Both the position numbers and the translations under genes were made by a program. DNA of 64,000 bases. It comes from a virus. How positions within the stretch are numbered: the first letter of the stretch is position 1; every line of letters begins with the position of its first letter. Of the stretch, positions 13,828-38,303 are shown one piece after another. Under the pieces are notes generated by a model, which did not search any database, had not been told where the DNA came from, and saw nothing but the letters and a program-made list of their open reading frames with translations. The stretch lies in the IMG/VR virus record IMGVR_UViG_3300028833_000010; one strand, 5' to 3'.

Positions 13828-13831
13828 AGTT

Positions 13832-14725: not shown

Positions 14726-14743
14726 CTTTTTATAATTTACAAT

Positions 14744-17236: not shown

Positions 17237-17332
17237 CAACCTTTCGTTTCTTTAACATAAACCGCATCAGGTGCTGATTTAATCTGATACAAAATGAAGA
17301 TTGTAACAGAATAATAAAAATAACTTTAAGAA

Positions 17333-17369
17333 AGGAGCATAAATAAACGTCTATGCTCCTTTTTTTTTC
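17333..17369 (+). terminator. Intrinsic terminator closing the structural module
   Basis: AGGAGCAT (17333-17340) pairs with ATGCTCCT (17353-17360) and is followed by a T9 tract. Confidence 0.75.
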
Positions 17370-17538
17370 TTTTTGTATTCGATGTCATATGAGTATATGT
17401 AGCGAGATATTATAGAAAAGATTATAAGTCACGAGCAGGCATGTAAATCATTTCTATGATTAACGATTTATCAAAGTTATACCGAAAGAGTGTGAACGTA
17501 TTGACCAGTAACACCAAAATAGGCAGCTCTGTCCTTGT

Positions 17539-17654
17539 GATTGAGGGGTAACTTCTGACAACTGCCGACTATCATACCCAAGTAATTTGTAACAGATGTT
17601 TAACAAGGGGGATTGAGGGGGTAACATTCTCTATATCCTAACACCCCAAGTAAT
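17539..17654 (+). promoter_or_regulatory. Two tandem GATTGAGGGG(G)TAAC ... CCC(C)AAGTAAT units (potential hairpins) immediately upstream of the first replication-module gene
   Basis: Unit 1 is 17539-17586 and unit 2 is 17611-17654, a period of about 72 nt. In each unit TTG(A)GGGG can pair with CCCCAA. Confidence 0.45.
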
Positions 17655-17663
17655 AATGATAAC

Positions 17664-17960
17664 ATGGAATCAAAGAAAACAGTTTGGAGCATCTTCCGAG
17701 ATTATGTCAATAGCAAACCTATTGGAACGGAAATAACTAGACAACAGGTTTTGTCCGTTATTAAAGATTACAGATTAGCAAGATTTTCAGACGTTACTGT
17801 TGATTGTAATCGCAACATGAGTGAGAAGGTAGGATATTTAGCTAAGACAAGCAAGTTAGGCATATATAGAGTAGTAAAACACTTTGCTGCTGATTATACG
17901 GCTGGACAGCTCAGAAAAGACTACGACAATGGCAATAGAAATAATAGTAACAAGAATTAA
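17664..17960 (+). CDS. Hypothetical protein, first gene of the replication module
   Basis: 98-aa ORF with an ATG start. Confidence 0.4.
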   Translation: MESKKTVWSIFRDYVNSKPIGTEITRQQVLSVIKDYRLARFSDVTVDCNRNMSEKVGYLAKTSKLGIYRVVKHFAADYTAGQLRKDYDNGNRNNSNKN

Positions 17961-19437: not shown

Positions 19438-19985
19438 ATACTTTTGTAGAGCTATTGGAACAAGTTACAAAACGAAAAGTTAATTACAAATGTAACAACT
19501 CTGATACGGCTTGTTGGAATAACTTTATGGATACCTTCTCTGACCTTATCGGAGAAGAGTTTGTGAGGAAGTTTTGCGAATATGGTATTCAATCTTGGTT
19601 TAATTCAGGAGCAAAGAAGGACTACTCACGAGAAATAAGGTTCAATTGGGTGTTCGGAAAAACTGCCATAGCAAGGTGGAAAAAGTACGACATAGACACT
19701 AATGTATATATTACAAGAATTGGGTTGAAGAAAGACCATAAAATCAATGTAATAAAGAAGAAAACAGAAATACCAGCGTTAATATCTATTATCAGACCTG
19801 CGGAGGAGAAATTCAAAGCAGACTATCATAATACCAACAGAGGATTTTTGTGGTGCATAGCAAATACAACTTTGTATTTTCACAAAAGTTCTAAATGTGC
19901 AACTTGTAAATTCAAATGTGAATGTAAGGAACTTCTGAAATCAGAATATCCGAAAATATATGTAAAAAGAGGTTATGGCGAATAG
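19386..19985 (+). CDS. Hypothetical Cys-rich protein between the two helicases
   Basis: 199-aa ORF with a C-terminal CATCKFKCEC cluster. The start is uncertain because ATG 19386 overlaps the helicase by 52 nt. Confidence 0.35.
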   Translation: MDNKVVRRRQRLFRCAVDTFVELLEQVTKRKVNYKCNNSDTACWNNFMDTFSDLIGEEFVRKFCEYGIQSWFNSGAKKDYSREIRFNWVFGKTAIARWKKYDIDTNVYITRIGLKKDHKINVIKKKTEIPALISIIRPAEEKFKADYHNTNRGFLWCIANTTLYFHKSSKCATCKFKCECKELLKSEYPKIYVKRGYGE

Positions 19986-21351
19986 TGATAGATTAGCAAG
20001 CAACTTTATTGTTGAGCTTCTTGCAGCTGCTTTAGAGAAAAGAACAGTATTTGAAATTGTAAGACAATACTTGAAATTCTCTTATTTGCAAATTGAAAGT
20101 GAGAAGAAACTGTGGCAATGGGTTACAAAAAGATATGACCTAACAGGTAAGGTTCCAACTATTGGTCAAATTCAACAACAATTCCAAGATGATGAAAATG
20201 TATTAGAGAAGCTTGAAGAGATTGACGATGTAGAAATTGACGAGCAAGGCGGTCATGATATGATTATTGATACTTTCGAGAAGTTCATCAAGAAGATGAA
20301 ATTTTTGGAAGCTAATGACAAGATTGCTGATTTATATAATCAAGGTAAGAAAGAACAATCTTGGGACATGTTCGTCAAATACGCTGAAGACTTTTCCAAA
20401 TTCTCTATTCAGTCTGCTAAGTTTGAAACTGTATTTGGAGACTTTGCGGAACGTCAGGCGAAAAGAAGAAGTGATGATTGGCAGTTTCGTTATAAAATAC
20501 CAACTGGTATTGATGAAATAGATTATCGGTTGGGCGGTGAGAATGGCGGTCCAGAGACTGGTGAGTGTGTTCTTTGGTTAGGAGATTCAGGAGCTGGTAA
20601 AAGTCAGGTTCTGGTTTCTGTAGGCATATCTGCTGCCCGACAAGGGTTCAGAGTAGCACACTTTCAGTTAGAAGGCACAAAAGAACAGTGTTTAAATAGA
20701 TATGATGCTGCTTGGACAGGTACGTTGTATCAGGATGTTAAACTTGGTAACATTACTGCCAAGAAGATGGAGGTGACCAAGCGCATTATCAAGAAGTTGA
20801 GAAAGAGTGATATCATAGTAAGTTCCGAGGAAACATTTAATGCTAAGACTTTGCCTGATGTTAGGAGAGAAGTCAAGGAAATGGAGAAAACTTATGGTAA
20901 GATTGATGTAATTGTAATAGACTATTTGGAGTTATTGGAAGTGGGTGACGGTCATAACTATACACCTAATGAAGAGCGTTTCAGACAAGCAAAACTTGCA
21001 AAAGGTATGAAGATGCTTGCTATGGAGTTTAATGCTGTAGTTCATACCGCTACTCAGTCAAGTAGTATTGGAGAGGAGCAAAAGAACGACCCAGAGTTTG
21101 TAATCACACGTGCTCAACTCAGCGAAGATAAAGGAAAAATCCGTCCATTCGACATCTTTGTTACTATTAATCAAACACGTGATGAAGCAAAAGAAGAGAT
21201 TATGCGACTTCATACTGATAAGCTACGAGACTACAAGAATGGTGACCCAATTCACATCTGTAATAATTTTGCTTATGCACGCTTCTACGACCGCAAGCGT
21301 ACTATGAACACCGACTGGGATGAATATGAAACAAACAGCAAGGAAGATTGA
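19975..21351 (+). CDS. DnaB-like replicative helicase (RecA-fold hexameric helicase)
   Basis: Walker A GDSGAGKSQ, Walker B VIVIDYLELL, and a typical DnaB-family C-terminal domain pattern. Confidence 0.7.
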   Translation: MANSDRLASNFIVELLAAALEKRTVFEIVRQYLKFSYLQIESEKKLWQWVTKRYDLTGKVPTIGQIQQQFQDDENVLEKLEEIDDVEIDEQGGHDMIIDTFEKFIKKMKFLEANDKIADLYNQGKKEQSWDMFVKYAEDFSKFSIQSAKFETVFGDFAERQAKRRSDDWQFRYKIPTGIDEIDYRLGGENGGPETGECVLWLGDSGAGKSQVLVSVGISAARQGFRVAHFQLEGTKEQCLNRYDAAWTGTLYQDVKLGNITAKKMEVTKRIIKKLRKSDIIVSSEETFNAKTLPDVRREVKEMEKTYGKIDVIVIDYLELLEVGDGHNYTPNEERFRQAKLAKGMKMLAMEFNAVVHTATQSSSIGEEQKNDPEFVITRAQLSEDKGKIRPFDIFVTINQTRDEAKEEIMRLHTDKLRDYKNGDPIHICNNFAYARFYDRKRTMNTDWDEYETNSKED

Positions 21352-22300
21352 TGATGCTGACCTTCGTGATTTGTTAATCAATCCGAAGTTAAACCGAAGA
21401 GGACAATACATTTGCGATTGTCCTTTTTGTGGTAAAGAAAAGCATTTTTATATATCACGTCAAACTCAGCTTTGGGATTGCAAGAAGTGTGGCGAACATG
21501 GAAGTATTTACAAACTTCTCAAACAGCTGGACAAAACTTATCTATTAGGTGGCGCAACAGTTGAGATTAGAGATACTATTCAGAGCCTTCGTAATATAGT
21601 TGCTGAAAGCATAGAGGATGATGAGGTGACGTTAAAGGAGTTGCCTGTTATAAAGATGCCTGTGGGATGGAAAGTGTCCGTAGCAAGCACGAAATATCTA
21701 TTGGGACGCAGAATAACACCTGCTGATTGTAAGCGTTATAACATAGGAGCTACTGATTTATATCGGAAATATCAAAACTATGTATTGGTACCAATTTACG
21801 ATGGTGGAAAGATACGAGGTTTTTTGGGACGTTATGGAGCTAAGAAAGTTCCTTCAAACCGATTAAGATACAATAACAGTGTTGGTACTGAGTTCTCTGA
21901 GCTTTTGTTTGGATATGACGAAATAACTAAGAACACCACAACTGTTATATTAGTAGAAGGAATTTTTGACAAGATAGCGGTTGACAAAGTTCTTCACTTA
22001 TGGGAGGGAGAGGACATAAAATGCGTTTGTACATTCGGTAAGAAAATCAGTCCAGCGCAATCTAAAAAGTTAATGATAAAGGGGGTCACAAATGTCATAT
22101 TGTTATATGATTTTGACGCTATCAAAGATATCAAAAAGTATGGCTTGGAACTGGAAAATAACTTTGTTACAAGTATTACATATACAAGTGCTAAAAAAGA
22201 TATTGACGAATGTACGGAGCAAGAAGCATTGGAAGTTTTCACCCACCTTCAGAAACCGAGAGAGTTCAACGAGGATGTAATTGGTAAATTAAAGAAGTGA
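21320..22300 (+). CDS. DNA primase (zinc-binding domain plus TOPRIM)
   Basis: Zinc motif CDCPFCGKEKHF...CKKCGEHG. TOPRIM residues VILVEGIFDKI and ILLYDFDA. Confidence 0.7.
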   Translation: MNMKQTARKIDDADLRDLLINPKLNRRGQYICDCPFCGKEKHFYISRQTQLWDCKKCGEHGSIYKLLKQLDKTYLLGGATVEIRDTIQSLRNIVAESIEDDEVTLKELPVIKMPVGWKVSVASTKYLLGRRITPADCKRYNIGATDLYRKYQNYVLVPIYDGGKIRGFLGRYGAKKVPSNRLRYNNSVGTEFSELLFGYDEITKNTTTVILVEGIFDKIAVDKVLHLWEGEDIKCVCTFGKKISPAQSKKLMIKGVTNVILLYDFDAIKDIKKYGLELENNFVTSITYTSAKKDIDECTEQEALEVFTHLQKPREFNEDVIGKLKK

Positions 22301-22305
22301 CGAAT

Positions 22306-22734
22306 ATGGATAAGACAAGAAACTTATCAGTAGCAGAATACTTCTCTGTGATACAGAAAGAGTATTTGATTGCTGAATTTAGAAAAAAGATATATTACAA
22401 CCCAAAAGATAAGGCATATTATCAAAGGGTAATGACGCACAAAGCTAAGAAGATAAACGACATTGCTAAACGCAATCGTTTAGATAGTATTCTGAATAAT
22501 TCCAGTAAGTTAGAAGAGGTGAGAAGCGAGCTGTTTGATAAACTTGGTAAACCTAAGTTTGAATTAAATGAGCTTGATGTTAAAAATTATTACGCCATTG
22601 GTAATGAGTTTTCGTTCAGGGGAGGTATATGGATTTTGGACCAAGTTAAGTCCGATGGAACATTGACGCTTTATTCTGCAAAGCTACAAGAATACGAAGA
22701 TGTTAATAAAGATGACGTATGTCGGATATTGTAG
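22306..22734 (+). CDS. Hypothetical protein
   Basis: ORF following the primase. The start could be ATG 22306 or the GTG at 22297, which overlaps the primase stop. Confidence 0.4.
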   Translation: MDKTRNLSVAEYFSVIQKEYLIAEFRKKIYYNPKDKAYYQRVMTHKAKKINDIAKRNRLDSILNNSSKLEEVRSELFDKLGKPKFELNELDVKNYYAIGNEFSFRGGIWILDQVKSDGTLTLYSAKLQEYEDVNKDDVCRIL

Positions 22735-22768
22735 AAAATATAATTTGTTATTTATCTAATAAATCATT

Positions 22769-22818
22769 GGGTTTGTCTGGGGTTTTGATTAATAAAAGTT
22801 AAACCTTTAGACAAACCC
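22769..22818 (+). terminator. Long hairpin ending the helicase-primase unit
   Basis: GGGTTTGTCT (22769-22778) pairs with AGACAAACCC (22809-22818), with an inner GGTTT/AAACC pairing. Confidence 0.6.
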
Positions 22819-22837
22819 AAAATTTCTTCCTTTTTTA

Positions 22838-22871
22838 TTTTGCCGATACAAAAATACTTCTTATCTTCGTA
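22838..22871 (+). promoter_or_regulatory. Class-1 promoter copy P1 (TTTTGCCG - 16 nt - TATCTTCGTA)
   Basis: TTTG ends at 22842 and TATCTTCG begins at 22862, a 19-nt gap. This fits the Bacteroidota -33 TTTG / -7 TAnnTTTG architecture. It is near-identical to four other copies. Confidence 0.6.
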
Positions 22872-22901
22872 TCGGAATTGTAAATCAAATCGTAAATCGC
22901 A

Positions 22902-23546
22902 ATGGGACAAAAGATGAAAATGTCAGAAAAACTCTATTATAGATATGAATATCTTGCGAAGAAGTACGCATCTAAGATATTCTCATATGAAGAACTGTCC
23001 TTTGAATTTGAGGACTTGGTTCAGGAGTTTCGCTTGAAAATCTTTACTTCCATAAAATCATACGGCAAGAGATGGGCCAAATATCGGAGAAACGAAGCAT
23101 CAAAGCCAGTACCAATCCGATTTTATTTAGAAGCTGCTTGTTCAAACAAGTCCAGAGATTTTATGAAGTATATAAACAGAGAGAGCTACAAAACCAGAAT
23201 TGATGAAATCAATTTTGATTATGGCATCGAAGAAGATACACAAATTTCTCCTGAATCAAACAAGTTTGTACTTAATGGAGTAGATTTGTTAGAAGGATTG
23301 ACGGGCAAAGAAAGAGTTATATTTTCACTTTTCTTGCGAGGTTACAATACAAAAATTCTTAACAAAGTTTATTTTAACAACGAGTCAGAGAAACGAGCAA
23401 GAAAGGAAATCTTGGACAATGATGATGAACCAATTGGAGTAGCAGATATAATAAATTTGCAAAAAAGTTACCTGATTCAGAAATATGGTAACGAATTGCT
23501 ACAACAAAAAAAAGTATTTTCAACTTACAGTTTCGATGAAGAGTAA
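22902..23546 (+). CDS. Sigma-70-family (ECF-like, region 2 + region 4) factor candidate
   Basis: Region-2-like FEDLVQEFRLKIF...RFYLEAACSNKSRDFMK and region-4-like LTGKERVIFSLFLRGYNTKIL. It is the first gene after promoter P1. Confidence 0.45.
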   Translation: MGQKMKMSEKLYYRYEYLAKKYASKIFSYEELSFEFEDLVQEFRLKIFTSIKSYGKRWAKYRRNEASKPVPIRFYLEAACSNKSRDFMKYINRESYKTRIDEINFDYGIEEDTQISPESNKFVLNGVDLLEGLTGKERVIFSLFLRGYNTKILNKVYFNNESEKRARKEILDNDDEPIGVADIINLQKSYLIQKYGNELLQQKKVFSTYSFDEE

Positions 23547-23589
23547 TAAACAATTTAACAAAAATAGTAATCATTAAAATCGTAAAACA

Positions 23590-24825
23590 ATGGCAACGAA
23601 AATGAATGCAGCAACAGAAAAAAGAGTGAAGGCATTAAAGATTAATGCAAAGAACGAAGAAGAAGCACGTGAAAAACTTCTTGAAATCTTGGTAGAAAAC
23701 GGAATTGAAGGCATGGAGGAAGAGGAAACAGACACCCTTCTGGACATTGCTGAATCCTTCGTAGAAGACAACAACTCAGGCGATGATGAAAAGACCGAAG
23801 AGGAAGAAAACGATGAACTTGCCGATGAAGTTGAAGAAGAGGAGGATGAAAAACCGAAGAAACCTGCCAAAAAGGCTTCTAAGAAAGTTGAAGAGCCTGA
23901 AGATGAGGAGGAAGAGGAAGAAGAGCCTGAAGATGAGGAGGAAGAGGAGCCTGAGGATGAAGAGGAAGAAGCTGATGAGTTCACAGAAATGGACAGAACA
24001 GAGCTGAAAGCCTACATCAAGGACAACGAGTTGGACATCACTGTTAAGAAGTCTATGACTGACGATGATATTCGTGACCTTATTCGTGCTGAAGTTGGAG
24101 AAGAAAAGGAAGAGGAAGAGAAGCCTGCTCCTAAGTCAAAGGCAAGTACGAAAACCTCTGAAAAAGTAGCTCCGAAGAAAGAGGATAAGAAAGCTGCCAC
24201 TGCTAAGAAGGCTGAGAAGAAGGAAACGAAACCTACTGCCGGCAAACGTGGAACGAAACTTGACCCTAAAAACAATGAAGATGACCGCAAAGCGTTCGCA
24301 CCATTGAAGAAGTTGTTCCCTGAAAGTGAGTACGCATATGCTTGGGTAGCGAGTGCGGGTGTAACTATCAAACATAAGGGCAAAAACTCTCAGCGTTCTA
24401 TGGTTCTTATTGAGAACTGTTCAAAACAGGATGACGGCTCTATCAAGTGTAACTTGTATCTGTTAACCTTCACGAAACAGACCGAAGTGCTGGACAAAGC
24501 AGGTATTGATTACGAGCCTTGCTGGAGTGGAGCACCGCTTATTAAGGGCATTACTCTTTCTGAAGCTATTGAAATCATTACTGAACTCATGGAATATATT
24601 ACGACAACTGTTCAGAAAATCGACAAGAAGCTGGGTGAAAACCGCAAGAAGATGGAAGAGAACTTGACCAAAAAGGCTTCTAAGAAAGTTGAAGAGCCTG
24701 AAGATGAGGAGGAAGAGGAAGAAGAGCCTGAAGAGGAGGAGGAAGAAGAGGATGAAGCACCAGCTCCAAAAAAGAAAGTTGCTTCAAAATCAGCTCCTGC
24801 TAAAAAGACTACCAAGAAGAAATAA
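23590..24825 (+). CDS. Poly-acidic/poly-basic protein with an HeH (SAP/Rho-N-like) motif and a globular central domain
   Basis: 411 aa. Poly-Glu tracts (EEEEEEEPEDEEEEE) occur twice, with Lys/Ala-rich tracts and the motif MDRTELKAYIKDNELDITVKKSMTDDDIRDLIRAEV. Coding is intact through the low-complexity parts. Confidence 0.6.
   Translation: MATKMNAATEKRVKALKINAKNEEEAREKLLEILVENGIEGMEEEETDTLLDIAESFVEDNNSGDDEKTEEEENDELADEVEEEEDEKPKKPAKKASKKVEEPEDEEEEEEEPEDEEEEEPEDEEEEADEFTEMDRTELKAYIKDNELDITVKKSMTDDDIRDLIRAEVGEEKEEEEKPAPKSKASTKTSEKVAPKKEDKKAATAKKAEKKETKPTAGKRGTKLDPKNNEDDRKAFAPLKKLFPESEYAYAWVASAGVTIKHKGKNSQRSMVLIENCSKQDDGSIKCNLYLLTFTKQTEVLDKAGIDYEPCWSGAPLIKGITLSEAIEIITELMEYITTTVQKIDKKLGENRKKMEENLTKKASKKVEEPEDEEEEEEEPEEEEEEEDEAPAPKKKVASKSAPAKKTTKKK
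23868..23933 (+). repeat. 66-nt perfect direct repeat, copy 1 (copy 2 at 24669-24734)
   Basis: An identical 66-nt string encoding KKASKKVEEPEDEEEEEEEPE. The copies are 801 nt apart, which keeps them in frame. Confidence 0.85.
24669..24734 (+). repeat. 66-nt perfect direct repeat, copy 2
   Basis: Identical to 23868-23933. Confidence 0.85.
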
Positions 24826-24852
24826 ACCTGATTGGTAATCAATAGAGAAGAA

Positions 24853-24885
24853 GGAGAGCATGTTGAGTGTTCTCCTTTCTTTTTA
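24853..24885 (+). terminator. Intrinsic terminator
   Basis: GGAGAGCA pairs with TGTTCTCC and is followed by a TTTCTTTTT tract. Confidence 0.6.
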
Positions 24886-24938
24886 TACAAAGTTTATAAT
24901 GGAGAACGATAATAATAAAATTCAAATAAATAATTGAT

Positions 24939-26180
24939 ATGAGTATTCCGAGTAACAATGTTTACGTTCCTGAGTTAGGAGTAGCAAAAACAGACACCTT
25001 TGCAGCGTTGTACCCTGCTATAAATTACTACCTGTTCACCCAGAAGGACTACGAGCCGAGCCGTGATGGAGAGGTTAAGGAGGTGCTTGATTTTAAGACG
25101 CAGTTGACCAATCCTTATCGTAGATGTGTAGGTGGTTATGAGCGTGATATAAATGTGTTCTTTTTGTTGGCTGAAGCGATGTGGATAGCAATGGGAAGGA
25201 AAGATGTTCATTTCTTGACTTTGTTCAATAAGAAGATGGCAGACTTTTCAGATGACGGGGAAACATTCCACGCTCCTTATGGTTATCGGTTACGTCATTG
25301 GGGCATTCGTACAGAAGATAAGTTTGTAAAAGATAATTTGGATGCAAGTAAGGGGTATGACCAAGTGATAGATGCTATCAAGATATTATCTGAAAATCCA
25401 AACAGTCGTCAGGTAGTTATGGAGATTTGGAATCCAAACTTTGACTTGGGATACAAAACTAAAGATATTCCATGTAATGATATAGTGATGTTGAAAATAC
25501 GAGAAGGAAAGCTCATCACTACTATCGGAAACCGAAGCAATGACCTTCATTGGGGATTGCCAACAAACATATTCCAATTCAGCTTTTTGACTGAGCTTAT
25601 AGCAGGAGCATTGGGAGTAAAACTTGGAACACAAACTCATAATTCTCAAAGTCTGCATATATACGAGTGGAATAAGATTGCTAAAACAATGAGCGACTTG
25701 TATGTTGAACAAAAAGGCGGTGGTTCTGTTATCGGGAATATGTATGATGATTGCGGTGCTCAAGAGCGTAGAATAGATTTCAACTTCAGCCATGAAGTAG
25801 CCGTCAATCGTTTCCGTGAAATTGAATACAATCTTCAAATCATTATTGATAACCTCATACGAGTATCAGAGGGAGAAGAGCCGATTGAGGCTGAAATCCA
25901 GCAGTTAGCAAACTTTTCTAACTATCTGTATAACTCTTATCTACTTTTGAAGATATATTTGGAATACAAGCTGAAAATGACTATTCTCAAAACTCCTGAC
26001 GAGAAAGATGTAGCACGTCATACCGCTATTTCTGAAATTGAAGTCTTGGAAGCTCATATGGAGGATAATAGCGGAACAGGAGTAATGGGCTACAATTGGG
26101 ATATATCTATGCTTGCAAAGAACTTCTTTGCCGCAAGGTTATCTAAAAAAGTGGAACATGAATATCTTGGTAAGCTATGA
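24939..26180 (+). CDS. ThyA-fold enzyme: thymidylate synthase or dUMP hydroxymethylase, with a ~130-aa C-terminal extension
   Basis: ThyA-family blocks: YGYRLRHW, DQV..AI..L..NPNSRQ, WNP, catalytic DIPCN, GNRSNDLHWGLPTNIFQFSFL, and HIY. Asn in the PTN block corresponds to the uracil-specifying Asn of ThyA. Confidence 0.7.
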   Translation: MSIPSNNVYVPELGVAKTDTFAALYPAINYYLFTQKDYEPSRDGEVKEVLDFKTQLTNPYRRCVGGYERDINVFFLLAEAMWIAMGRKDVHFLTLFNKKMADFSDDGETFHAPYGYRLRHWGIRTEDKFVKDNLDASKGYDQVIDAIKILSENPNSRQVVMEIWNPNFDLGYKTKDIPCNDIVMLKIREGKLITTIGNRSNDLHWGLPTNIFQFSFLTELIAGALGVKLGTQTHNSQSLHIYEWNKIAKTMSDLYVEQKGGGSVIGNMYDDCGAQERRIDFNFSHEVAVNRFREIEYNLQIIIDNLIRVSEGEEPIEAEIQQLANFSNYLYNSYLLLKIYLEYKLKMTILKTPDEKDVARHTAISEIEVLEAHMEDNSGTGVMGYNWDISMLAKNFFAARLSKKVEHEYLGKL

Positions 26181-29100
26181 CAGAAACATTAGCAAAGTGG
26201 TTAGAAGAGAACAAGATGACAGTATCGGAGTCAGAATTGGATGGCTCCGATATTATTACCATAGATGAGATTGGTACATTTCTTTATCTTCAACCATTTG
26301 ATGGTAAAATAATTGATGAAGATTTTGCCTTTATCCTTTCAGACGAGGAGTTTGATGTATTGGATGAAAAGAAGGTAAACTACATATTATTTGAATTTGG
26401 AGGCAAATTCTATTATTCAGGCATTAAGAAAGATAAAAATCGTTACAATGAATTAGTATTCAAACCAGAGTTCAATGATTTCAAATATCTGGGTAAAACG
26501 AGCGAGCCGAAAGTCATGGACTTCGTGCACTTGGGAGTACATTCGGAATATGAAATTATGAACGGCTCAGGCTCCTGTGAGCTTTGGGCGAAGAAGGCAA
26601 GTTTTATGGAATGTAAGGCAGTTGGTATTTGCGACAAGAATACCTTGGCTGGAGTTCTTTCGTTTCAGACCGCTTGCGAAAAAAAGAAAATCAAATCAAT
26701 AATTGGAGAAACTGTTACAGTAGCAGTTAATTACTCAGAAGATAAACAGAATCAAGAAACCTTTGAACTGAAGTTCTTTGTTTTGAACTACGAAGGTTGG
26801 AAGAATTTACTGCTCATCAATAAAGCTATAAATGTAGATTACAATGGTTTCATTCCTGATACGCTTCTTTATACGCTAGGTAAAGGACTTTGCTGCGTAG
26901 TGCCGAAGGAGAGTGAATTTAACTATGTAAAAGACGATAAGAAGGCTGCTGTAAAACTTATAGCAAAATACAAGAAAGTATTTGACAAAGTGTTCTATCA
27001 GATAGACACAGTTGAGTATGTTTCGCAACAACTATTCAGAAGACATCTTGAGAACATAGACACATATCTTTGTAATTATCGAAAGATGTTGAAACCTATC
27101 TTGATAAATGACTCCTATTATCTTGATGAGGAAGAAAGTGGGTTGAAGTCAATTCTCAATAAAGTAAACAACAAGGCTACACCAGAGTCAAATAACCAAT
27201 ACTTCAAGAGTGTAGCAGATACTATAAACTCTTATGAAGAATGGATTGATAACGTAGAGCCATTGTTTGAGGCAATTGTAACTGGTATAGAGAATGCTTC
27301 AAAGCTATCTGACTCCATAGACTTTCGGATAAATACAGGAGTGCGTAAACTGCCTCATTTTGAGGTTAAGGATGTTGAAGGTAAATTCTTTGAGGAGTTG
27401 GAGAAAGGCATCAATGAACGTCTTGGACACCTAAAACCGAAAGAGATGAATAAGTACATGAAGCAAATTGAAACCGAGTGTGCTGTAATAGTTCCGAATG
27501 GTTTGTGTGATTATTTCATGATACTTTGGGATATTATTAAATGGTGTCACGATAATGATATCAATGTGGGAACTGGACGTGGTTCAGTTTGCGGTAGTCT
27601 TGTTGCTTATTGTTTACATATTACTGAAGTTGACCCATTGAAATATGGATTGATGTTTGAGCGTTTCTTGAATGAAACACGTGTATCGGGAGAGCGTGCG
27701 AAGTCTGCTGACTCTATGCCTGATATTGACGTTGATTTTCCAACCGAGTTCCGTGATGCAGTTAAGGAGTATATCAAAAACAAATACGGATATGCCTACA
27801 CATGTAGCATAGGAACGTACACACGAATGAAGCTCAAAACTTGTATTAAAGACTTTGGAAAGGTTAAGGGACTTTCGTTTGATTTAACAAACAAACTTAC
27901 TAAGGATATTGACGACCAGATTGAATACACTTGGGGAGACTTGATTGAATACGCTTCAAAATCAAAACTTCTTTTCAAATTCGTTCAAGAAAACCCAGAG
28001 CTAGTTCATTTGACTAAATATGCCTTGCTACAGCCGAAAGCGGAGAGTGTTCACCCTTCTGCTGTTGTTATAGTGCCGAAGCATAGAGTTGATGGTAGCA
28101 ATGCCGAAATTGACTTATGGGAGTGGATGCCCGTCAAGAAGATTGATGGAGTATTAGTATCTGAGTGGGAAGGTAAATACATTGACAAATCAGGCTTCTT
28201 GAAGGAGGATATTCTTGGACTATCTCAACTTGATAAGTTTAAGAGTATCTTGACTTTGATAAAGAAAAACACTGGCAAGAACATAGATTTAAACAAGATA
28301 CCATTGGATGATGAAGCAACATTTCGATACTTCAAAAGAGGGTGGAATGAGGATGTGTTTCAGTTCGGTACCACTGGGCTGATGAACTATTGCCGACAGG
28401 TGAAACCTGATACGCTTGAAAACCTTGTGGCGATGTCGGCTCTTTTCAGACCTGGTCCAATGGAAATGAATGCTCATCAGGATTTTTGCGATATCAAAAA
28501 TGGCAAGAAAAAACCAACCTATGATTTTGGAATGGAAAACATAACTCACGAGACTTTTGGGTTGTATGTTTATCAGGAACAAATCATGAAAGCGGTTGTA
28601 GTAGGAGGATTGACCGAAGTGGAATCAGATGTACTGCGTACTACCATTAAAAAGAAAGACATCAAAACTCTAAGTTCATTTGGCGAAAAATTCAAGATTG
28701 GCTATACAAAGTTGCTTGAAAAGAATGGTATTGAGAAACCGAAGGAATATGCTGAACGTGTTTGGGATAAACTTCTTGCCTTCTCTGGTTATGGTTTCAA
28801 CAAGTCTCACGCTGTTGCTTACTCTTTAATATCTTATTGGAGTCAATGGTTGAAAGTGAACTATCCATTAGAGTTTTGGACAACGGCTCTTCAATTCTCC
28901 AAAGAGGGTGAAGTGCCATACCGACTTGCCGAGTTGAAGAAAACAGGAGTTGATGTTGAGATACGTCCACCTGATGTTAATTTCTCTGATATAAATTTCA
29001 CGTGTGACTCGAAAGAACAGCGTATCTTCTTTAGCTTGACAAAAATTAAAGGTGTAGGAGAGGTAGCAGTTCAGAATATCATGAATACAAGACGTGAGGG

Positions 29101-29728
29101 TGGGCAATTCTATTCGTTGGAAGAGTTCCTGAGTAGAGTACCTTCAAAAGTGAATAAAACTGTTGTAAAATGCCTTATAATTGCTGGAGCATTCGACCTT
29201 ATTGAAGACATCAAAAATCCAAGAGACAGAAAGAAACTACTGGAGAAGTATCTTGATATGAATGGTGATACTTTATCAGAGGAGTACTCAACGCCAGATA
29301 GTAATTCAAATGCTTTTTGGATTTTGGAGCAAAAACGTCTTACTGGTTTTGGAGAGGTTGATTATGAGAACATGATAAGGGATGCTATACCAAATAAGCG
29401 AATTGCTAACATATTCGTTAATGAAGTAGAGTTCTTGGCTGCTAATGAGAAGAAAGAAGTTGCTATTGCCGGCAAACTTATAACTTACAGGGAAAAAGAC
29501 ATTAAGACAGGAACAATGTGTACTCTGAATATAGATTGCAATAATACGATTATACCAGTACTCATGTGGCCAGATGCTTATGAGAAGATAGGAGAGAATA
29601 TTGCTGATATAAAGGGGTGTGTTGTAGCTATAAGCGGTACTGTTGAGAAAGATACTTGGAAAAACGAAAAGAAATTGTTTAGTAACAACAAAACAAAGTT
29701 ATATGTATTGTCTGACCATAAAAACTAA
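26177..29728 (+). CDS. dnaE: DNA polymerase III alpha (DnaE-type, family C) replicative polymerase
   Basis: PHP start FVHLGVHSEYEIMNG, palm motif MPDIDVDFPTEFRD, GTGRGSVCGSLVAYCLHITEVDPL, FNKSHAVAYS, and a C-terminal OB-like segment. A ~110-aa N-terminal extension precedes the PHP domain. Confidence 0.85.
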   Translation: MTETLAKWLEENKMTVSESELDGSDIITIDEIGTFLYLQPFDGKIIDEDFAFILSDEEFDVLDEKKVNYILFEFGGKFYYSGIKKDKNRYNELVFKPEFNDFKYLGKTSEPKVMDFVHLGVHSEYEIMNGSGSCELWAKKASFMECKAVGICDKNTLAGVLSFQTACEKKKIKSIIGETVTVAVNYSEDKQNQETFELKFFVLNYEGWKNLLLINKAINVDYNGFIPDTLLYTLGKGLCCVVPKESEFNYVKDDKKAAVKLIAKYKKVFDKVFYQIDTVEYVSQQLFRRHLENIDTYLCNYRKMLKPILINDSYYLDEEESGLKSILNKVNNKATPESNNQYFKSVADTINSYEEWIDNVEPLFEAIVTGIENASKLSDSIDFRINTGVRKLPHFEVKDVEGKFFEELEKGINERLGHLKPKEMNKYMKQIETECAVIVPNGLCDYFMILWDIIKWCHDNDINVGTGRGSVCGSLVAYCLHITEVDPLKYGLMFERFLNETRVSGERAKSADSMPDIDVDFPTEFRDAVKEYIKNKYGYAYTCSIGTYTRMKLKTCIKDFGKVKGLSFDLTNKLTKDIDDQIEYTWGDLIEYASKSKLLFKFVQENPELVHLTKYALLQPKAESVHPSAVVIVPKHRVDGSNAEIDLWEWMPVKKIDGVLVSEWEGKYIDKSGFLKEDILGLSQLDKFKSILTLIKKNTGKNIDLNKIPLDDEATFRYFKRGWNEDVFQFGTTGLMNYCRQVKPDTLENLVAMSALFRPGPMEMNAHQDFCDIKNGKKKPTYDFGMENITHETFGLYVYQEQIMKAVVVGGLTEVESDVLRTTIKKKDIKTLSSFGEKFKIGYTKLLEKNGIEKPKEYAERVWDKLLAFSGYGFNKSHAVAYSLISYWSQWLKVNYPLEFWTTALQFSKEGEVPYRLAELKKTGVDVEIRPPDVNFSDINFTCDSKEQRIFFSLTKIKGVGEVAVQNIMNTRREGGQFYSLEEFLSRVPSKVNKTVVKCLIIAGAFDLIEDIKNPRDRKKLLEKYLDMNGDTLSEEYSTPDSNSNAFWILEQKRLTGFGEVDYENMIRDAIPNKRIANIFVNEVEFLAANEKKEVAIAGKLITYREKDIKTGTMCTLNIDCNNTIIPVLMWPDAYEKIGENIADIKGCVVAISGTVEKDTWKNEKKLFSNNKTKLYVLSDHKN

Positions 29729-29753
29729 ATCGTAAATTAAAATTGATAAAATT

Positions 29754-30407
29754 ATGTTAGCGAAAATTTTCAATGGAGCTTATCTGAAAAGGCTTGATAA
29801 CATCAAGCAGTGGCAAGAAATGGACGTTTTCAAAGAGGAAAGCGTGAGTCAACATTCTTATAAAGTATCAATCTTTGGAAGGATATTACTTGAAGATATA
29901 TTTGGGTTTGATAACCAAGATGCGAAAGTATTGGCATTCAAACTTGATTGTGTAGATGCGTTTGCGTTCCACGATTGGGATGAAGCGTTGATACTCAGAG
30001 ATATGTCTCATGAGACAAAGTACAATAATTATAATGGTACTGAAATCAGACAAGCTCTCAATAACCTATCAAAACATAAAGCAATTGATGAGTTCAGAGA
30101 AGATGATGGAAATAATTGCGGTAATTGTAGTGCTTCTGCTTACTTGGTTATTGGCAATATTACACGTCAAGGAGATGATGTTAAAATCTTTTGTAAACTG
30201 GTTGATTGGTTAGCTCTTATCTTCTATATGAAAAGGGAACGTGAGTTGGGTAACAAGGGACTAAGTGCTCAATGGGAGAATGGTAAAGAAGAACTGAAAC
30301 AGGCTGTTACGAATGTAATTGAAATGTTGAATAGAAAGTTTGAAGGTTATTATTTGAACTTAACAGAATTAAATAACTTAATCAAAAATGTGTATGACGA
30401 ACATTAA
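29754..30407 (+). CDS. HD-domain phosphohydrolase (YfbR-like 5'-deoxynucleotidase candidate)
   Basis: ESVSQHSYKVSIFGRILL (the H of the HD domain) and AFHDWDEALILRDMSHETKY (the HD..E..D block), resembling the YfbR pattern. Confidence 0.5.
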   Translation: MLAKIFNGAYLKRLDNIKQWQEMDVFKEESVSQHSYKVSIFGRILLEDIFGFDNQDAKVLAFKLDCVDAFAFHDWDEALILRDMSHETKYNNYNGTEIRQALNNLSKHKAIDEFREDDGNNCGNCSASAYLVIGNITRQGDDVKIFCKLVDWLALIFYMKRERELGNKGLSAQWENGKEELKQAVTNVIEMLNRKFEGYYLNLTELNNLIKNVYDEH

Positions 30408-30417
30408 ACCGAAGGAG

Positions 30418-30693
30418 ATGACTAAAGAGAGTATAGATAGCATCTTCAATGGCATGAACGAATTGCTGGTAAAGAAAAACCATGATTACAAGGGAGCTTC
30501 TTTTGACCTTGGGATGAACGGCAATATGGTTCATTTATGGGACAAAGTTAGTAGGTATCGTAACATGGTAGAAAACAAGATGCGTGGAGAACAACCAAAC
30601 TTTGAAGGCATTGAAGATACGTTGAAAGATATTATCGGATATGCAGTGATTGGGCTACATATCTTGAAAGCCGAAGAAAACGAAAAGGAGTAA
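30418..30693 (+). CDS. All-alpha MazG-like / DUF1599-like (nucleotide-modification-associated) small protein
   Basis: KKNHDYKGASFDLGMNGNMVHLWDKVSRYRNMVE...EDTLKDIIGYAVIGL matches my recollection of the DUF1599/MazG-like pattern. I placed the start at ATG 30418, which is preceded by GAAGGAG. Confidence 0.4.
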   Translation: MTKESIDSIFNGMNELLVKKNHDYKGASFDLGMNGNMVHLWDKVSRYRNMVENKMRGEQPNFEGIEDTLKDIIGYAVIGLHILKAEENEKE

Positions 30694-30696
30694 CAG

Positions 30697-31218
30697 ATGG
30701 ACAAGAAACTCATTACAATTAGTGGCAAAACTTACAAGCTATTATTTGACAACTTTGATGAGGACATGGATATTGACTCTTTATTGAAGATAGATTATTC
30801 AAACCTTATTGGAGAGCTTGTAACATTCCCAGTAATTGTAAACCGATTTGGTCAATTACTTGCTGAAGCTGAATCTCAAGTTGCAGAAGCTAAACTCAAT
30901 CTGGAAGTATTTGAAGCTAAAACCAAAGAGAGATTGAGAAGTGAATTAGCAGCTGAAAATAACGGCAAAGCTCCTACTGTTGAGGCTCTCAATAATGCGG
31001 TTGTGGGTAACAAAGCTTACCAAGCAATGAGAAAGAAGTTTATTGAGGTTCAGAAAACAAGAGATTACATGAACTCAATCTTTTGGTCTGCTAAAGATAA
31101 GAGTGAGAAGTTGGACAAACTTTCTCTTACTGTTCAGCAAGGTGATATTACTGATTCGGTTATCGAAGGAAGAGTGAATGGCATCTTGATAAAGAGAACG
31201 AAAAAATTGATTGATTAA
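30697..31218 (+). CDS. Coiled-coil protein, possible UvsY-like recombination mediator
   Basis: 173 aa. It lies directly upstream of the SSB-like and RecA-like genes. Only a loose resemblance in architecture to UvsY. Confidence 0.25.
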   Translation: MDKKLITISGKTYKLLFDNFDEDMDIDSLLKIDYSNLIGELVTFPVIVNRFGQLLAEAESQVAEAKLNLEVFEAKTKERLRSELAAENNGKAPTVEALNNAVVGNKAYQAMRKKFIEVQKTRDYMNSIFWSAKDKSEKLDKLSLTVQQGDITDSVIEGRVNGILIKRTKKLID

Positions 31219-31245
31219 CAATAACATAGTAGATTTAAGAAAATC

Positions 31246-32592: not shown

Positions 32593-32625
32593 ATTTCATC
32601 TACTTTCATATTGTTAACAAACGAG

Positions 32626-32661
32626 ATAAGCCAGCGGTTGAAATATATCGTTGGCTTATTT
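32626..32661 (+). terminator. Hairpin between the SSB-like and RecA-like genes (terminator or attenuator)
   Basis: ATAAGCCAGCG (32626-32636) pairs with CGTTGGCTTAT (32649-32659): 11 bp including one G-U pair. Confidence 0.45.
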
Positions 32662-32679
32662 CATATAAAACAAAAGTTT

Positions 32680-33810: not shown

Positions 33811-33837
33811 CAGCGTTTATAAGGAAAATATGAATTT

Positions 33838-36763: not shown

Positions 36764-36814
36764 GCATCTCAAAGTTTATAGAGATAATATGAACAATGTA
36801 AACTTTTATTATAG

Positions 36815-37330: not shown

Positions 37331-37332
37331 AT

Positions 37333-37671: not shown

Positions 37672-37675
37672 CGGT

Positions 37676-38302: not shown

Positions 38303-38303
38303 T

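What the first reader, a model, noticed from the sequence alone, without database searches (positions are those of the whole stretch)
24939..26180. ThyA-fold enzyme with a non-canonical active-site neighbourhood and a long C-terminal extension: dUMP hydroxymethylase candidate
The ORF has the ThyA blocks, including the catalytic Cys. That Cys sits in DIPCN, whereas I recall PCH in E. coli ThyA. The pyrimidine-specifying residue in GLPTNIFQ is Asn, which indicates a uracil (dUMP) substrate rather than cytosine. About 130 extra residues follow the canonical C-terminus, which normally closes the folate site. Phages that make 5-hmdU DNA (the SPO1 type) use exactly such ThyA paralogs. The gene is also translationally coupled (ATGA overlap) to the replicative polymerase gene. 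Sequence alone cannot separate methylation from hydroxymethylation.
Basis: partly seen in the sequence, partly recalled or inferred. Interest (0 to 1): 0.65.

Follow-up and report, generated by a model that had tools for sequence, protein, structure and literature searches.

The report
Phage dUMP hydroxymethylase, new uncultured lineage
The gene encodes a thymidylate-synthase-like enzyme that almost certainly makes 5-hydroxymethyl-dUMP rather than dTMP, so this uncultured phage probably replaces thymine with 5-hydroxymethyluracil; this trick is already known from SPO1-type phages, and here it appears in a new lineage.

Summary
The ORF at 24939..26180 (413 aa) is real and all four sequence observations hold: DIPCN, GLPTNIFQ, the long C-terminal region and the ATGA overlap with a DnaE-type polymerase gene.

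The hydroxymethylase reading is well supported by sequence.
- The best cultured-phage hits are the dUMP hydroxymethylases of SP-10, SPO1 (gp29) and SP8, then the M6 homologue.
- In a bootstrapped NJ tree it groups with them against canonical TS and T4 dCMP hydroxymethylase (94/100).
- It scores far below every NCBIfam thymidylate-synthase cut-off.
- It has the published hydroxymethylase signature, Asp three residues before the catalytic Cys (D176-x-x-C179), where TS has Leu.
- It keeps the uracil-specifying Asn210 and the deoxyribose-type residues R157 and S200.
- The TS Trp pair and the folate-closing tail are absent.

The 'extension' is a trait of the whole clade (351-413 aa). A confident AlphaFold model shows it as an all-helical domain replacing the TS tail.

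The genomic context fits. The hydroxymethylase-to-DnaE order is conserved in 75/76 related loci. The window also holds an HD 5'-deoxynucleotidase, DUF1599, a dUTPase, an HU homologue and a homologue of M6 gp55 / the SP10 gp186 C-terminal domain. No DHFR, second TS or P-loop 5-hmdU DNA kinase was found.

Verdict: a new member of a known kind. The product is inferred, not assayed.

The parts
24850..24878 (+). Terminator-like hairpin (12 bp stem followed by a T-run) directly upstream. It probably marks the start of a new transcription unit running hydroxymethylase, DnaE, HD, DUF1599.
   Evidence: No other + strand terminator-like site was found up to 31400.
24939..25667 (+). Catalytic TS-fold core (residues 1-243) of the dUMP hydroxymethylase candidate. 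Key residues: R42, E79, Y114, R157, D176, C179 (nucleophile, nt 25473-25475), N180, R199, S200, D202, N210 (uracil specificity, nt 25566-25568), H240, Y242.
   Evidence: alignments and signature residues. (AF2 model, pLDDT 90). (Foldseek: MilA, then TS).
25668..26180 (+). C-terminal all-helical domain (residues 244-413, seven helices) that replaces the TS C-terminal strands and the folate-closing tail. It is conserved within the lineage. On its own it has no detectable fold or sequence relative.
   Evidence: models. (no PDB match, best E = 1.7). (hhalign against the SPO1 and M6 C-terminal regions not significant). (conserved residues within the lineage).
26177..29728 (+). DnaE-type (Pol III alpha) replicative polymerase. 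Its start overlaps the hydroxymethylase stop (ATGA). It is the presumed incorporator of 5-hmdUTP.
   Evidence: Adjacency is conserved within 100 nt in 75/76 related loci.
29754..30407 (+). YfbR-like HD 5'-deoxynucleotidase. It is a candidate dTMP-clearing enzyme, analogous to the dTMPase of hmU phages. M6 also has an HD hydrolase next to its hydroxymethylase.
   Evidence: PF12917, 1e-10. (NF003009, below cut-off).. (M6 gp59). Function inferred.
30388..30693 (+). DUF1599, 'nucleotide modification associated domain 1' protein.
   Evidence: PF07659, 5e-7, above cut-off. (PHROG 1485; weak hit to a 'hydrolase' family).
52440..52742 (+). HU-family DNA-binding protein, 33% identical over its full length to SPO1 TF1 (the HU homologue of an hmU phage).
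   Evidence: PF00216. (BLASTP 1e-13 to TF1). Circumstantial only.
56489..56968 (+). Trimeric dUTPase. It supplies dUMP and removes dUTP.
   Evidence: (NF001862, 2e-52, above cut-off).
62208..63320 (+). Stand-alone 'HMUDK_hel' protein (370 aa, no P-loop). It is homologous to the C-terminal, non-kinase half of SP10 gp186, to M6 gp55 and to the ViI gp160-type protein, a family listed as unique to thymidine-hypermodifying phages. Its function has not been established.
   Evidence: PF18723, 1.6e-49. (BLAST). PMC5889632 table 3. PMC8989533.
63322..64000 (+). 5' part of an FkbM-family (Methyltransf_21) methyltransferase gene that runs off the window. The full 373-aa product is in L004. It is an accessory gene, present in only 24/78 related loci.
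   Evidence: TIGR01444, 6e-19..

Best explanation
The ORF encodes a dUMP hydroxymethylase (dUMP + 5,10-CH2-THF + H2O -> 5-hmdUMP + THF). It belongs to a large uncharacterised lineage of the SPO1-gp29-type branch of the thymidylate-synthase superfamily.

Proposed mechanism, inferred from TS and dCH chemistry and from the residues conserved here:
1. The Cys179 thiolate adds to C6 of dUMP. The uracil is oriented by Asn210, the phosphate is held by R42, R157', R199 and S200, and the 3'-OH by H240 and Y242.
2. C5 attacks the iminium form of CH2-THF. N10 protonation goes through E79.
3. Y114, with a water molecule, removes the C5 proton and THF is eliminated, leaving the exocyclic methylene intermediate.
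4. The hydrophobic lid of TS is absent (W80, W83, L143 and the C-terminal tail), and Asp176 sits where TS has Leu143. A water molecule activated by Asp176 therefore adds to C7 in place of hydride transfer from THF C6. This gives 5-hmdUMP, and THF rather than DHF.

Proposed downstream pathway (inferred): kinases not identified here raise 5-hmdUMP to the triphosphate. The DnaE polymerase encoded immediately downstream incorporates it. The dUTPase, the HD 5'-deoxynucleotidase and possibly DUF1599 bias the nucleotide pools against dUTP and dTMP/dTTP. The virion DNA would then carry 5-hmU in place of some or all T, protecting it from host nucleases.

The C-terminal helical domain is a clade-typical structural module. 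It is not a fused enzyme.
For: Shown here:
- The best cultured-phage homologues are the SP-10 enzyme annotated 'dUMP hydroxymethylase', SPO1 gp29 and SP8. They are 40-47% identical over residues ~22-254, E about 1e-42 to 1e-44. The hydroxymethylase homologues of the thymidine-hypermodifying phage M6 and its relatives come next.
- The best PHROG (5131, 1.5e-69) is a 357-position profile, longer than canonical TS.
- NJ tree with 100 bootstraps: known dUMP hydroxymethylases + window + 38 representatives separate from canonical TS + T4 dCH in 94/100 replicates. TS is monophyletic in 100/100.
- Identity on the trimmed alignment is 30-36% to SPO1, SP10, M6 and YungSlug, and about 19% to TS and dCH.
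- NCBIfam scores are far below every TS equivalog cut-off (75.9 vs 174.6; 70.6 vs 327; 60.7 vs 108.4).
- Signature residues are shared with all known dUMP hydroxymethylases, and (except where noted) with 38/38 representatives. E. coli equivalents are in brackets: D176 (L143), C179 (C146), N180 (H147), N198 (Q165; N in 29/38), N201, W205 (L172; 35/38), T209 (F176; T 23, A 14) and N210 (N177). The WDEW region is replaced by FSDDG.
- Asp at -3 from the Cys is the published hydroxymethylase signature. T4 dCH D145N is inactive and TS has Leu at this position (PMC6400193). MilA also has this Asp (alignment).
- The residues at the two MilA positions whose mutation (K133R, A176S) shifts preference from CMP to dCMP are R157 and S200 here, i.e. 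the deoxy type (alignment; PMC6400193).
- The AF2 model (pLDDT 90, pTM 0.91) has the TS core followed by helices only, with no TS-like C-terminal strands or tail.
- The best PDB fold match is the hydroxymethylase MilA (E = 5e-17, TMt 0.78, 350-380 aligned columns), ahead of all TS entries.

Context:
- No DHFR, ThyX or second TS appears among all ORFs scanned.
- A dUTPase, an HD 5'-deoxynucleotidase and DUF1599 are present.
- A homologue of M6 gp55 / SP10 gp186C is present. This family is reported as unique to thymidine-hypermodifying phages (PMC5889632).
- An HU homologue is present, 33% identical to SPO1 TF1.
- The hydroxymethylase-to-DnaE adjacency is conserved in 75/76 loci.
Against: - No member of the window's own sub-lineage (22 representatives, bootstrap 91) has been characterised. 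Its position relative to the SPO1, M6 and ViI branches inside the clade is unresolved (bootstraps 24-40), so the function is extrapolated across about 30-35% identity.
- The second half of the published dCH signature is not met. The Ser two residues before the catalytic Tyr (S94 in T4 dCH) is Ala112 here. It is also Ala in SPO1 gp29, and T4 S94A keeps about 25% activity.
- The alignment of the W80/W83 loop is gap-rich, so those equivalences are less certain.
- No dNMP kinase for 5-hmdUMP and no dCMP deaminase were recognised in the window.
- Only NJ trees were built, not ML.
- I could not inspect model coordinates, so the position of the helical domain relative to the folate site is unknown.
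Confidence: 0.8

Rival explanations
1. It is a divergent but functional thymidylate synthase that makes dTMP + DHF, with an unrelated helical domain fused at the C-terminus.
For: It belongs to Pfam Thymidylat_synt. Public sources that name homologues call them 'thymidylate synthase'. The core catalytic residues (Cys, Glu, Tyr, Arg, Asn, His/Tyr) are all present. It is the only TS-family gene found in the window.
Against: - It fails all NCBIfam TS equivalog cut-offs by a factor of 2-5.
- It clusters with dUMP hydroxymethylases rather than TS (94/100).
- It lacks the residues TS needs to seal the site for hydride transfer. L143 is Asp, W80 and W83 are replaced, and there is no C-terminal tail (PMC6400193).
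- No DHFR is encoded nearby, whereas canonical phage td genes in RB69 and FelixO1 sit next to frd.
Confidence: 0.07
2. It is a cytosine-specific or ribonucleotide-specific hydroxymethylase, that is T4 gp42-like (dCMP) or MilA-like (CMP).
For: MilA is the best structural match and one of the best PDB sequence matches. The protein shares the Asp-x-x-Cys signature with both enzymes.
Against: - The pyrimidine-specifying residue is Asn210, as in TS and SPO1 gp29. It is Asp in T4 dCH (D179) and in MilA.
- The two positions that set ribo versus deoxy preference in MilA (K133, A176) are Arg157 and Ser200 here, the deoxy type (PMC6400193).
- T4 dCH falls outside the clade.
Confidence: 0.04
3. It uses the TS-fold exocyclic-methylene chemistry but traps the intermediate with a nucleophile other than water, or feeds a modification other than plain 5-hmU. 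The C-terminal domain would recruit a partner or a co-substrate.
For: The C-terminal domain has no known relative and is conserved within the lineage. The lineage is uncharacterised. The genome carries an orphan gp55/gp160-type protein without the usual kinase.
Against: The active-site residues are essentially identical to those of the characterised dUMP hydroxymethylases. Comparable helical C-terminal regions exist in SPO1 gp29, SP10, M6 and MilA, where the product is a plain hydroxymethyl nucleotide. In MilA the domain lies away from the active site (PMC5175136).
Confidence: 0.06

Closest known systems
SPO1 gp29 / SP-10 gp188 dUMP hydroxymethylase (deoxyuridylate hydroxymethyltransferase; Wilhelm & Rueger 1992, as cited in PMC5175136 and PMC6400193)
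   Same: - TS fold.
- The Asp-x-Pro-Cys-Asn motif (D176 / C179 / N180 here).
- The NRSND-HWG motif and the uracil-specifying Asn.
- The FSDDG loop in place of WDEW.
- A non-TS helical C-terminal region of 130-170 residues.
- A gene close to the phage DNA polymerase gene and to an HU-family gene.
   Different: - Only 30-36% identity.
- The C-terminal domains are not detectably homologous by profile comparison.
- The host phage is a ~97-100 kb uncultured type whose nearest cultured relatives are Bacteroides, Chryseobacterium and Cellulophaga phages. It uses a DnaE polymerase, whereas SPO1-type phages are Bacillus herelleviruses with a Pol A-type polymerase.
Hydroxymethylase homologues of the thymidine-hypermodifying phages M6 (gp58), ViI and PhiW-14 (PMC5889632, PMC8989533)
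   Same: - The same enzyme clade and the same signature residues.
- An HD hydrolase encoded nearby, as in M6.
- The genome also carries a homologue of M6 gp55 / ViI gp160.
   Different: - No P-loop 5-hmdU DNA kinase, aGPT-Pplase2, PLP enzyme or radical-SAM enzyme was found in the ~83 kb examined.
- The known hypermodification route therefore cannot be assumed here.
MilA CMP hydroxymethylase (PDB 5jnh, 5b6d)
   Same: - Best structural match to the full-length model.
- Asp at -3 from the catalytic Cys.
- An extra C-terminal helical domain in place of the TS tail.
   Different: - MilA is cytosine- and ribose-preferring (Asp at the specificity position; K133 and A176).
- The window protein has Asn210, Arg157 and Ser200.
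- The isolated C-terminal domain does not retrieve MilA.
T4 gp42 dCMP hydroxymethylase
   Same: - The same water-addition chemistry.
- The Asp-x-x-Cys signature.
- No TS C-terminal tail.
   Different: - gp42 is 246 aa with no helical C-terminal domain.
- It has Asp179 for cytosine.
- It falls outside the clade in the tree.
- About 19% identity.
Canonical ThyA (E. coli; phage td)
   Same: - The overall fold and the covalent Cys-C6 catalysis using CH2-THF.
   Different: - L143 is Asp, H147 is Asn, Q165 is Asn.
- W80 and W83 are lost.
- There is no folate-closing C-terminal tail.
- The protein fails the TS equivalog cut-offs.
- There is no DHFR partner gene.

Membership tests
dUMP hydroxymethylase (SPO1 gp29 type, TS superfamily) | TS/dCMP-hydroxymethylase fold with the catalytic Cys | tested here: met
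   PF00303 at 8e-25. C179 aligns with E. coli C146. AF2 model plus Foldseek hits to MilA and TS.
dUMP hydroxymethylase (SPO1 gp29 type, TS superfamily) | Asn at the pyrimidine-specifying position (uracil rather than cytosine) | tested here: met
   N210 aligns with E. coli N177. T4 dCH has Asp at this position.
dUMP hydroxymethylase (SPO1 gp29 type, TS superfamily) | Acidic residue three positions before the catalytic Cys (the water-activating hydroxymethylase signature; Leu in TS) | tested here: met
   D176-I-P-C179. Asp is present in all 5 known hydroxymethylases, 38/38 representatives, T4 dCH and MilA. TS has Leu or Ile (PMC6400193).
dUMP hydroxymethylase (SPO1 gp29 type, TS superfamily) | Ser/Thr two residues before the catalytic Tyr (second part of the signature proposed for dCH) | tested here: not met
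   The residue is A112 (HAPYG). It is also Ala in SPO1 gp29 and SP10, so this feature seems specific to dCH rather than defining for dUMP hydroxymethylases.
dUMP hydroxymethylase (SPO1 gp29 type, TS superfamily) | Absence of the TS C-terminal folate-closing tail, replaced by a helical region | tested here: met
   The model shows only helices after residue 245. SPO1, SP10, M6 and YungSlug proteins are 351-413 aa with non-TS C-terminal regions.
dUMP hydroxymethylase (SPO1 gp29 type, TS superfamily) | Groups with characterised dUMP hydroxymethylases rather than with TS or dCH | tested here: met
   NJ bootstrap 94/100 for the hydroxymethylase-like clade. The branching order inside the clade is unresolved.
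dUMP hydroxymethylase (SPO1 gp29 type, TS superfamily) | Catalyses dUMP + CH2-THF -> 5-hmdUMP + THF | not testable with these tools
   This needs an enzyme assay or analysis of virion DNA.
Canonical thymidylate synthase ThyA | Reaches the curated family score (NCBIfam equivalogs) | tested here: not met
   Best scores are 75.9 bits vs a cut-off of 174.6, 70.6 vs 327 and 60.7 vs 108.4.
Canonical thymidylate synthase ThyA | Hydrophobic seal for hydride transfer (W80, W83, L143 and the C-terminal tail) | tested here: not met
   The equivalents are A101, F103 and D176, and there is no tail.
dCMP hydroxymethylase (T4 gp42) | Asp at the base-specifying position | tested here: not met
   The residue is N210.
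MilA-type CMP hydroxymethylase | Cytosine-specifying Asp plus the ribose-preference residues (Lys133, Ala176) | tested here: not met
   The equivalents are N210, R157 and S200 (alignment; PMC6400193).
Thymidine hypermodification system (5-HMUDK + aGPT-Pplase2 and tailoring enzymes) | P-loop 5-hmdU DNA kinase | tested here: not met
   No tblastn hit to M6 gp54 or SP10 gp186N. The only Walker A motifs are in the DnaB-like, RecA-like and two UvrD-like proteins and the terminase. This covers the window, 9.3 kb downstream and 10 kb upstream. About 14 kb of the genome was not seen.
Thymidine hypermodification system (5-HMUDK + aGPT-Pplase2 and tailoring enzymes) | aGPT-Pplase2 amino-acid:DNA transferase | tested here: not met
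   No Pfam hit in any ORF scanned and no tblastn hit to M6 gp51.
Thymidine hypermodification system (5-HMUDK + aGPT-Pplase2 and tailoring enzymes) | gp55 / gp160 / gp186C-type helical protein (Pfam HMUDK_hel) | tested here: met
   Window 62208..63320, PF18723 at 1.6e-49. BLASTP to SP10 gp186 residues 316-597 at 7e-25 and to M6 gp55 at 3e-14.

The most novel reading that the evidence does not exclude
This widespread, uncultured lineage of ~97-100 kb phages, distantly related to Bacteroides phages, may make 5-hmU DNA and then process it by a route not yet described. It keeps the gp55 / gp160 / gp186C-type 'HMUDK_hel' protein, whose function is unknown even in M6, ViI and SP10. It lacks the P-loop kinase and aGPT-Pplase2 that define the known pathway. 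In about a third of relatives, an FkbM-family methyltransferase gene is inserted directly after the HMUDK_hel gene. The outcome could be a new thymidine derivative, for example an O-methylated hmU. Alternatively, it could reveal the long-unknown enzyme that converts hmU in DNA back to T.
Probability: 0.12. Interest if true: 0.7.

Novelty: new member of a known kind. Interest (0 to 1): 0.3.

Why it matters
- If the prediction holds, a large and abundant group of uncultured phages carries 5-hmU in place of T. The group comprises hundreds of metagenomic contigs of 92-100 kb, and its nearest cultured relatives are Bacteroides, Chryseobacterium and Cellulophaga phages.
- That would matter for phage-host defence interplay. 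It would also affect how well such genomes are recovered by restriction-, ligation- or polymerase-based library methods.
- These proteins are currently labelled 'thymidylate synthase' where a public source names them at all, so the annotation would need correcting.
- The lineage would extend the sequence space of dUMP hydroxymethylases. It also offers a natural test of the Asp(-3) water-activation model in a uracil-specific enzyme.
- The enzyme class itself is not new.

Tried and rejected
- Megablast of 12 kb around the gene against GenBank phages found no match, so there is no close cultured relative.
- I tested whether the C-terminal domain is a known fold or a fused enzyme. A separate AF2 model (pLDDT 87) searched against the PDB gave nothing better than E = 1.7. 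Pfam shows no second domain. hhalign against the C-terminal regions of the SPO1 and M6 clades was not significant. I therefore do not claim homology to the MilA C-terminal domain. I claim only that full-length MilA is the best superposition.
- The search for a P-loop 5-hmdU DNA kinase and aGPT-Pplase2 in the window and its flanks was negative.
- I tested whether the FkbM methyltransferase is an obligate partner of the HMUDK_hel protein. It is not: it is present in 24/78 loci.
- A scan of bacterial and archaeal genomes for prophage or host clues returned one irrelevant 2-kb MAG fragment.
- The window HD protein shows no BLAST similarity to the M6 gp59 HD protein.
- The DUF1599 protein has no PDB sequence relative.
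About 14 kb of the genome remains unseen.
- A first bootstrap attempt with Biopython's distance calculator timed out. I repeated it with my own Kimura-distance NJ.
Full report
**Observation.** The window carries an ATG-initiated ORF at 24939..26180 on the + strand, encoding 413 aa.
- Its last four bases form an ATGA overlap with a 1183-aa ORF at 26177..29728. That ORF is a DnaE-type Pol III alpha. Its closest cultured relatives are in Chryseobacterium, Tenacibaculum, Cellulophaga and Bacteroides phages, at 32-34% identity. A relative's copy carries the PHP, DNA_pol3_alpha, finger and HHH_6 Pfam domains.
- DIPCN is residues 176-180 and GLPTNIFQ is residues 206-213.
- In HMMER alignments to solved structures, C179 aligns with the TS nucleophile and N210 with the TS Asn.
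- The match to Pfam Thymidylat_synt (8e-25) covers only residues 75-243, which are profile positions 54-212 of 266.
- 171 residues follow the conserved H240-x-Y242, against 55 in E. coli ThyA. I checked my typed E. coli sequence as identical to PDB 1aob.

**Closest relatives.**
- tblastn against 50,697 GenBank phage records puts Bacillus phages first: SP-10 (CDS annotated 'dUMP hydroxymethylase'), SPO1 (gene 29), SP8, SP82G and relatives. These are 40-47% identical over residues ~22-254. Pseudomonas phage M6 and its relatives follow.
- SPO1 gp29 is the biochemically characterised deoxyuridylate hydroxymethylase (Wilhelm & Rueger 1992, cited in PMC5175136 and PMC6400193).
- SP10, PhiW-14, M6 and ViI build their hypermodified thymidines from 5-hmdU, which is made by such a TS homologue (PMC5889632, PMC8989533).
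- These proteins are all long. SPO1 gp29 is 383 aa, SP-10 382, M6 gp58 351 and YungSlug 413. The 'long C-terminal extension' is therefore a trait of the clade, not a peculiarity of this ORF.

**How large the family is.**
- The 5.8-billion-protein search returned 758 homologues at E <= 1e-10. The top 120 are 60-95% identical and full length, and many lie on contigs of 92-100 kb.
- The exhaustive search of 50%-identity representatives found 392 representatives at E <= 1e-30. Many of those listed align end to end at 42-52% identity.

**Tree and family cut-offs.**
- I aligned the window protein with 38 representatives and five hydroxymethylases from phages known or inferred to use hmU (SPO1, SP10, YungSlug, M6 and a ViI-like phage). 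I added T4 gp42 and five canonical TS sequences: E. coli, a Bacillus phage, RB69 td, FelixO1 td and a Microbacterium phage.
- In NJ trees with 100 bootstraps, the hydroxymethylase-like sequences separate from TS + dCH in 94 replicates. TS is monophyletic in 100.
- The window's own sub-lineage (22 representatives) has 91% support and contains no characterised member. The order of the sub-lineages inside the clade is unresolved.
- Identity on the trimmed alignment is 30-36% to the SPO1, SP10, M6 and YungSlug enzymes, 26% to the ViI-like one, and about 19% to every TS and to dCH.
- Against NCBIfam, the protein hits seven thymidylate-synthase equivalog models, all far below their curated cut-offs.

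**Active site.**
- The shared catalytic machinery is intact. E. coli numbers are in brackets: R42 (R21), E79 (E58), Y114 (Y94), R157 (R126), C179 (C146), R199 (R166), S200 (S167), D202 (D169), N210 (N177), H240 (H207) and Y242 (Y209).
- The differences from TS are systematic, and all known dUMP hydroxymethylases share them. In the window protein L143 is D176, H147 is N180, Q165 is N198, C168 is N201, L172 is W205, F176 is T209 and R127 is Q158. Across the clade, D176, N180 and N201 are invariant in 38/38 representatives. N198 is Asn in 29/38 and W205 is Trp in 35/38. T209 is Thr or Ala in 37/38, and position 158 is Arg (26) or Gln (12).
- The WDEW folate-contact segment is replaced by a shorter FSDDG loop.
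- The T4 dCH ternary-complex study showed that Trp83 and Leu143 of E. coli TS control solvent access. In dCH, the Asp three residues before the Cys (D145) activates the substrate water, and D145N is inactive. The authors propose this Asp, Leu in TS, as the signature of hydroxymethylation (PMC6400193). The window protein has that Asp. So does MilA (alignment).
- The companion Ser of the dCH signature is Ala112 here, and also Ala in SPO1 gp29, so that part does not transfer to the uracil enzymes.
- Two MilA positions, K133 and A176, shift that enzyme's preference from CMP towards dCMP when mutated to Arg and Ser. Here they are R157 and S200, the deoxy type. The MilA and dCH cytosine-specifying Asp is Asn210 here.

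**Structure.**
- An AlphaFold2 model from a 58-sequence alignment is confident (pLDDT 90, pTM 0.91). It shows the TS alpha/beta core to about residue 242, followed only by helices: 246-259, 268-272, 288-310, 317-326, 328-347, 353-372 and 388-398.
- Foldseek against the PDB ranks the CMP hydroxymethylase MilA first (E = 5e-17, TMt 0.78-0.79, 350-380 aligned columns). All thymidylate synthases come after it (about 1e-14 to 1e-13, about 290 columns).
- MilA likewise has five extra C-terminal helices that lie away from the active site, and its truncations are insoluble (PMC5175136).
- The window's C-terminal domain modelled alone (pLDDT 87) has no PDB match better than E = 1.7. Profile-profile comparison with the SPO1-type and M6-type C-terminal regions is not significant.
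- The domain is conserved within the lineage, with invariant or nearly invariant residues to the last residue.
- I therefore describe it as a fast-evolving, clade-typical helical module standing where the TS folate-closing tail would be. I do not claim homology to MilA's domain or any specific function.

**Genome context.**
- All genes are on one strand.
- A terminator-like hairpin at 24850-24878 precedes the gene. No further terminator-like site follows on the + strand up to 31400. The hydroxymethylase, DnaE, a YfbR-like HD 5'-deoxynucleotidase (29754..30407) and a DUF1599 'nucleotide modification associated domain 1' protein (30388..30693) thus probably form one transcription unit.
- In 80 related IMG/VR loci, DnaE follows the hydroxymethylase within 100 nt in 75 of the 76 that have room for it. 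The junction varies: ATGA, TAATG or spacers of 3-5 nt.
- Elsewhere the window encodes a dUTPase (56489..56968) and an HU-family protein 33% identical to SPO1 TF1 (52440..52742).
- At 62208..63320 there is a 370-aa protein matching Pfam HMUDK_hel (1.6e-49). It has no P-loop. It aligns with the C-terminal half of SP10 gp186, whose N-terminal half is the 5-hmdU DNA kinase, and with M6 gp55 and the ViI gp160-type protein. [quoted passage not shown] Its role is unknown: M6 gp55 is dispensable in vitro, and SP10 gp186 is an active kinase without this domain (PMC8989533).
- No DHFR, ThyX, second TS, dCMP deaminase, P-loop hmU kinase or aGPT-Pplase2 was detected in any ORF scanned. Nor was any found in 9.3 kb downstream (L004) or 10 kb upstream (L018). 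Those flanks hold the portal gene, an endolysin-type glycoside hydrolase and unannotated ORFs.
- An FkbM-family methyltransferase gene starts right after the HMUDK_hel gene and runs off the window. It is present in only 24 of 78 related loci and is therefore accessory.
- The nearest cultured phages by terminase (35%) and DnaE (32%) are the Bacteroides thetaiotaomicron phages DAC and SJC. A Bacteroidota host is plausible but not shown.

**Interpretation.**
- The best-supported explanation is that this is a dUMP hydroxymethylase. It would use the common TS-family covalent mechanism up to the exocyclic methylene intermediate. A water molecule activated by Asp176 would then add to C7, because the hydrophobic seal and tail needed for hydride transfer are missing. 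The products would be 5-hmdUMP and THF.
- The steps rest on homology to TS and dCH chemistry and on residue conservation. None was measured.
- Downstream phosphorylation, incorporation by the adjacent DnaE and pool clearing by the dUTPase, HD and DUF1599 proteins are inferred by analogy with SPO1-type phages (PMC8989533, introduction).
- Whether the DNA stays as hmU or is processed further cannot be decided.

**Novelty and score.**
- The enzyme class, its signature residues, the long helical C-terminal region and its genomic association with replication genes are all known.
- What is new is the lineage: large, uncultured and not represented among cultured GenBank phages. Where a public source names these proteins at all, it calls them 'thymidylate synthase'.
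- I rate it a new member of a known kind, with interest 0.3.
- The more interesting open point is the orphan HMUDK_hel protein without the kinase and transferase partners.

Noticed in passing
window 62208..63320: A stand-alone 'HMUDK_hel' protein (370 aa, no Walker A). It is homologous to the non-kinase C-terminal half of SP10 gp186, to M6 gp55 and to the ViI gp160-type protein. Neither the P-loop 5-hmdU DNA kinase nor aGPT-Pplase2 was found in about 83 kb of this genome. The function of this family is unknown even in the model phages.
   Followed up: partly
window 63322..64000 (full gene in L004:11052-12173): An FkbM-family (Methyltransf_21) methyltransferase with an unassigned N-terminal region of about 175 aa, encoded immediately after the HMUDK_hel gene. 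It is present in only 24 of 78 related IMG/VR loci, so it is an accessory insertion. Its target (hmU hydroxyl, another base, or not DNA at all) is unknown.
   Followed up: partly
window 23590..24825: A 411-aa extremely acidic, Lys-rich protein with a near-identical segment (…KKASKKVEEPEDEEEEEEEPE…) near residue 95 and again near the C-terminus. It has no Pfam hit. It is conserved directly upstream of the hydroxymethylase in 74/80 related loci.
   Followed up: no
window 52440..52742: An HU-family DNA-binding protein, 33% identical over its full length to SPO1 TF1. SP-10 and YungSlug also encode an HU homologue next to their hydroxymethylase.
   Followed up: partly
window 29754..30693: A YfbR-like HD 5'-deoxynucleotidase overlapping a DUF1599 ('nucleotide modification associated domain 1') gene, directly after the polymerase gene. 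These are candidate dTMP/dTTP-clearing enzymes. The HD protein has no BLAST similarity to the HD protein next to the M6 hydroxymethylase.
   Followed up: partly
window 38612..40138 and 57453..58934: Two paralogous UvrD/Rep-type helicases (508 and 493 aa) in one phage genome. The genome also encodes DnaB-like, DEAD/ResIII, RecA-like and SbcCD-like proteins.
   Followed up: no
window 1..64000: Every credible gene is on the + strand. GC skew is positive in all sixteen 4-kb bins (0.10-0.26), so the cumulative skew rises without a turning point.
   Followed up: no
window 40315..41298: A 327-aa protein with an N-terminal 'A1S_2505 family phage non-structural protein' domain (NCBIfam, 2.6e-38) and a weak hit to a PHROG family labelled phosphatase.
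   Followed up: no
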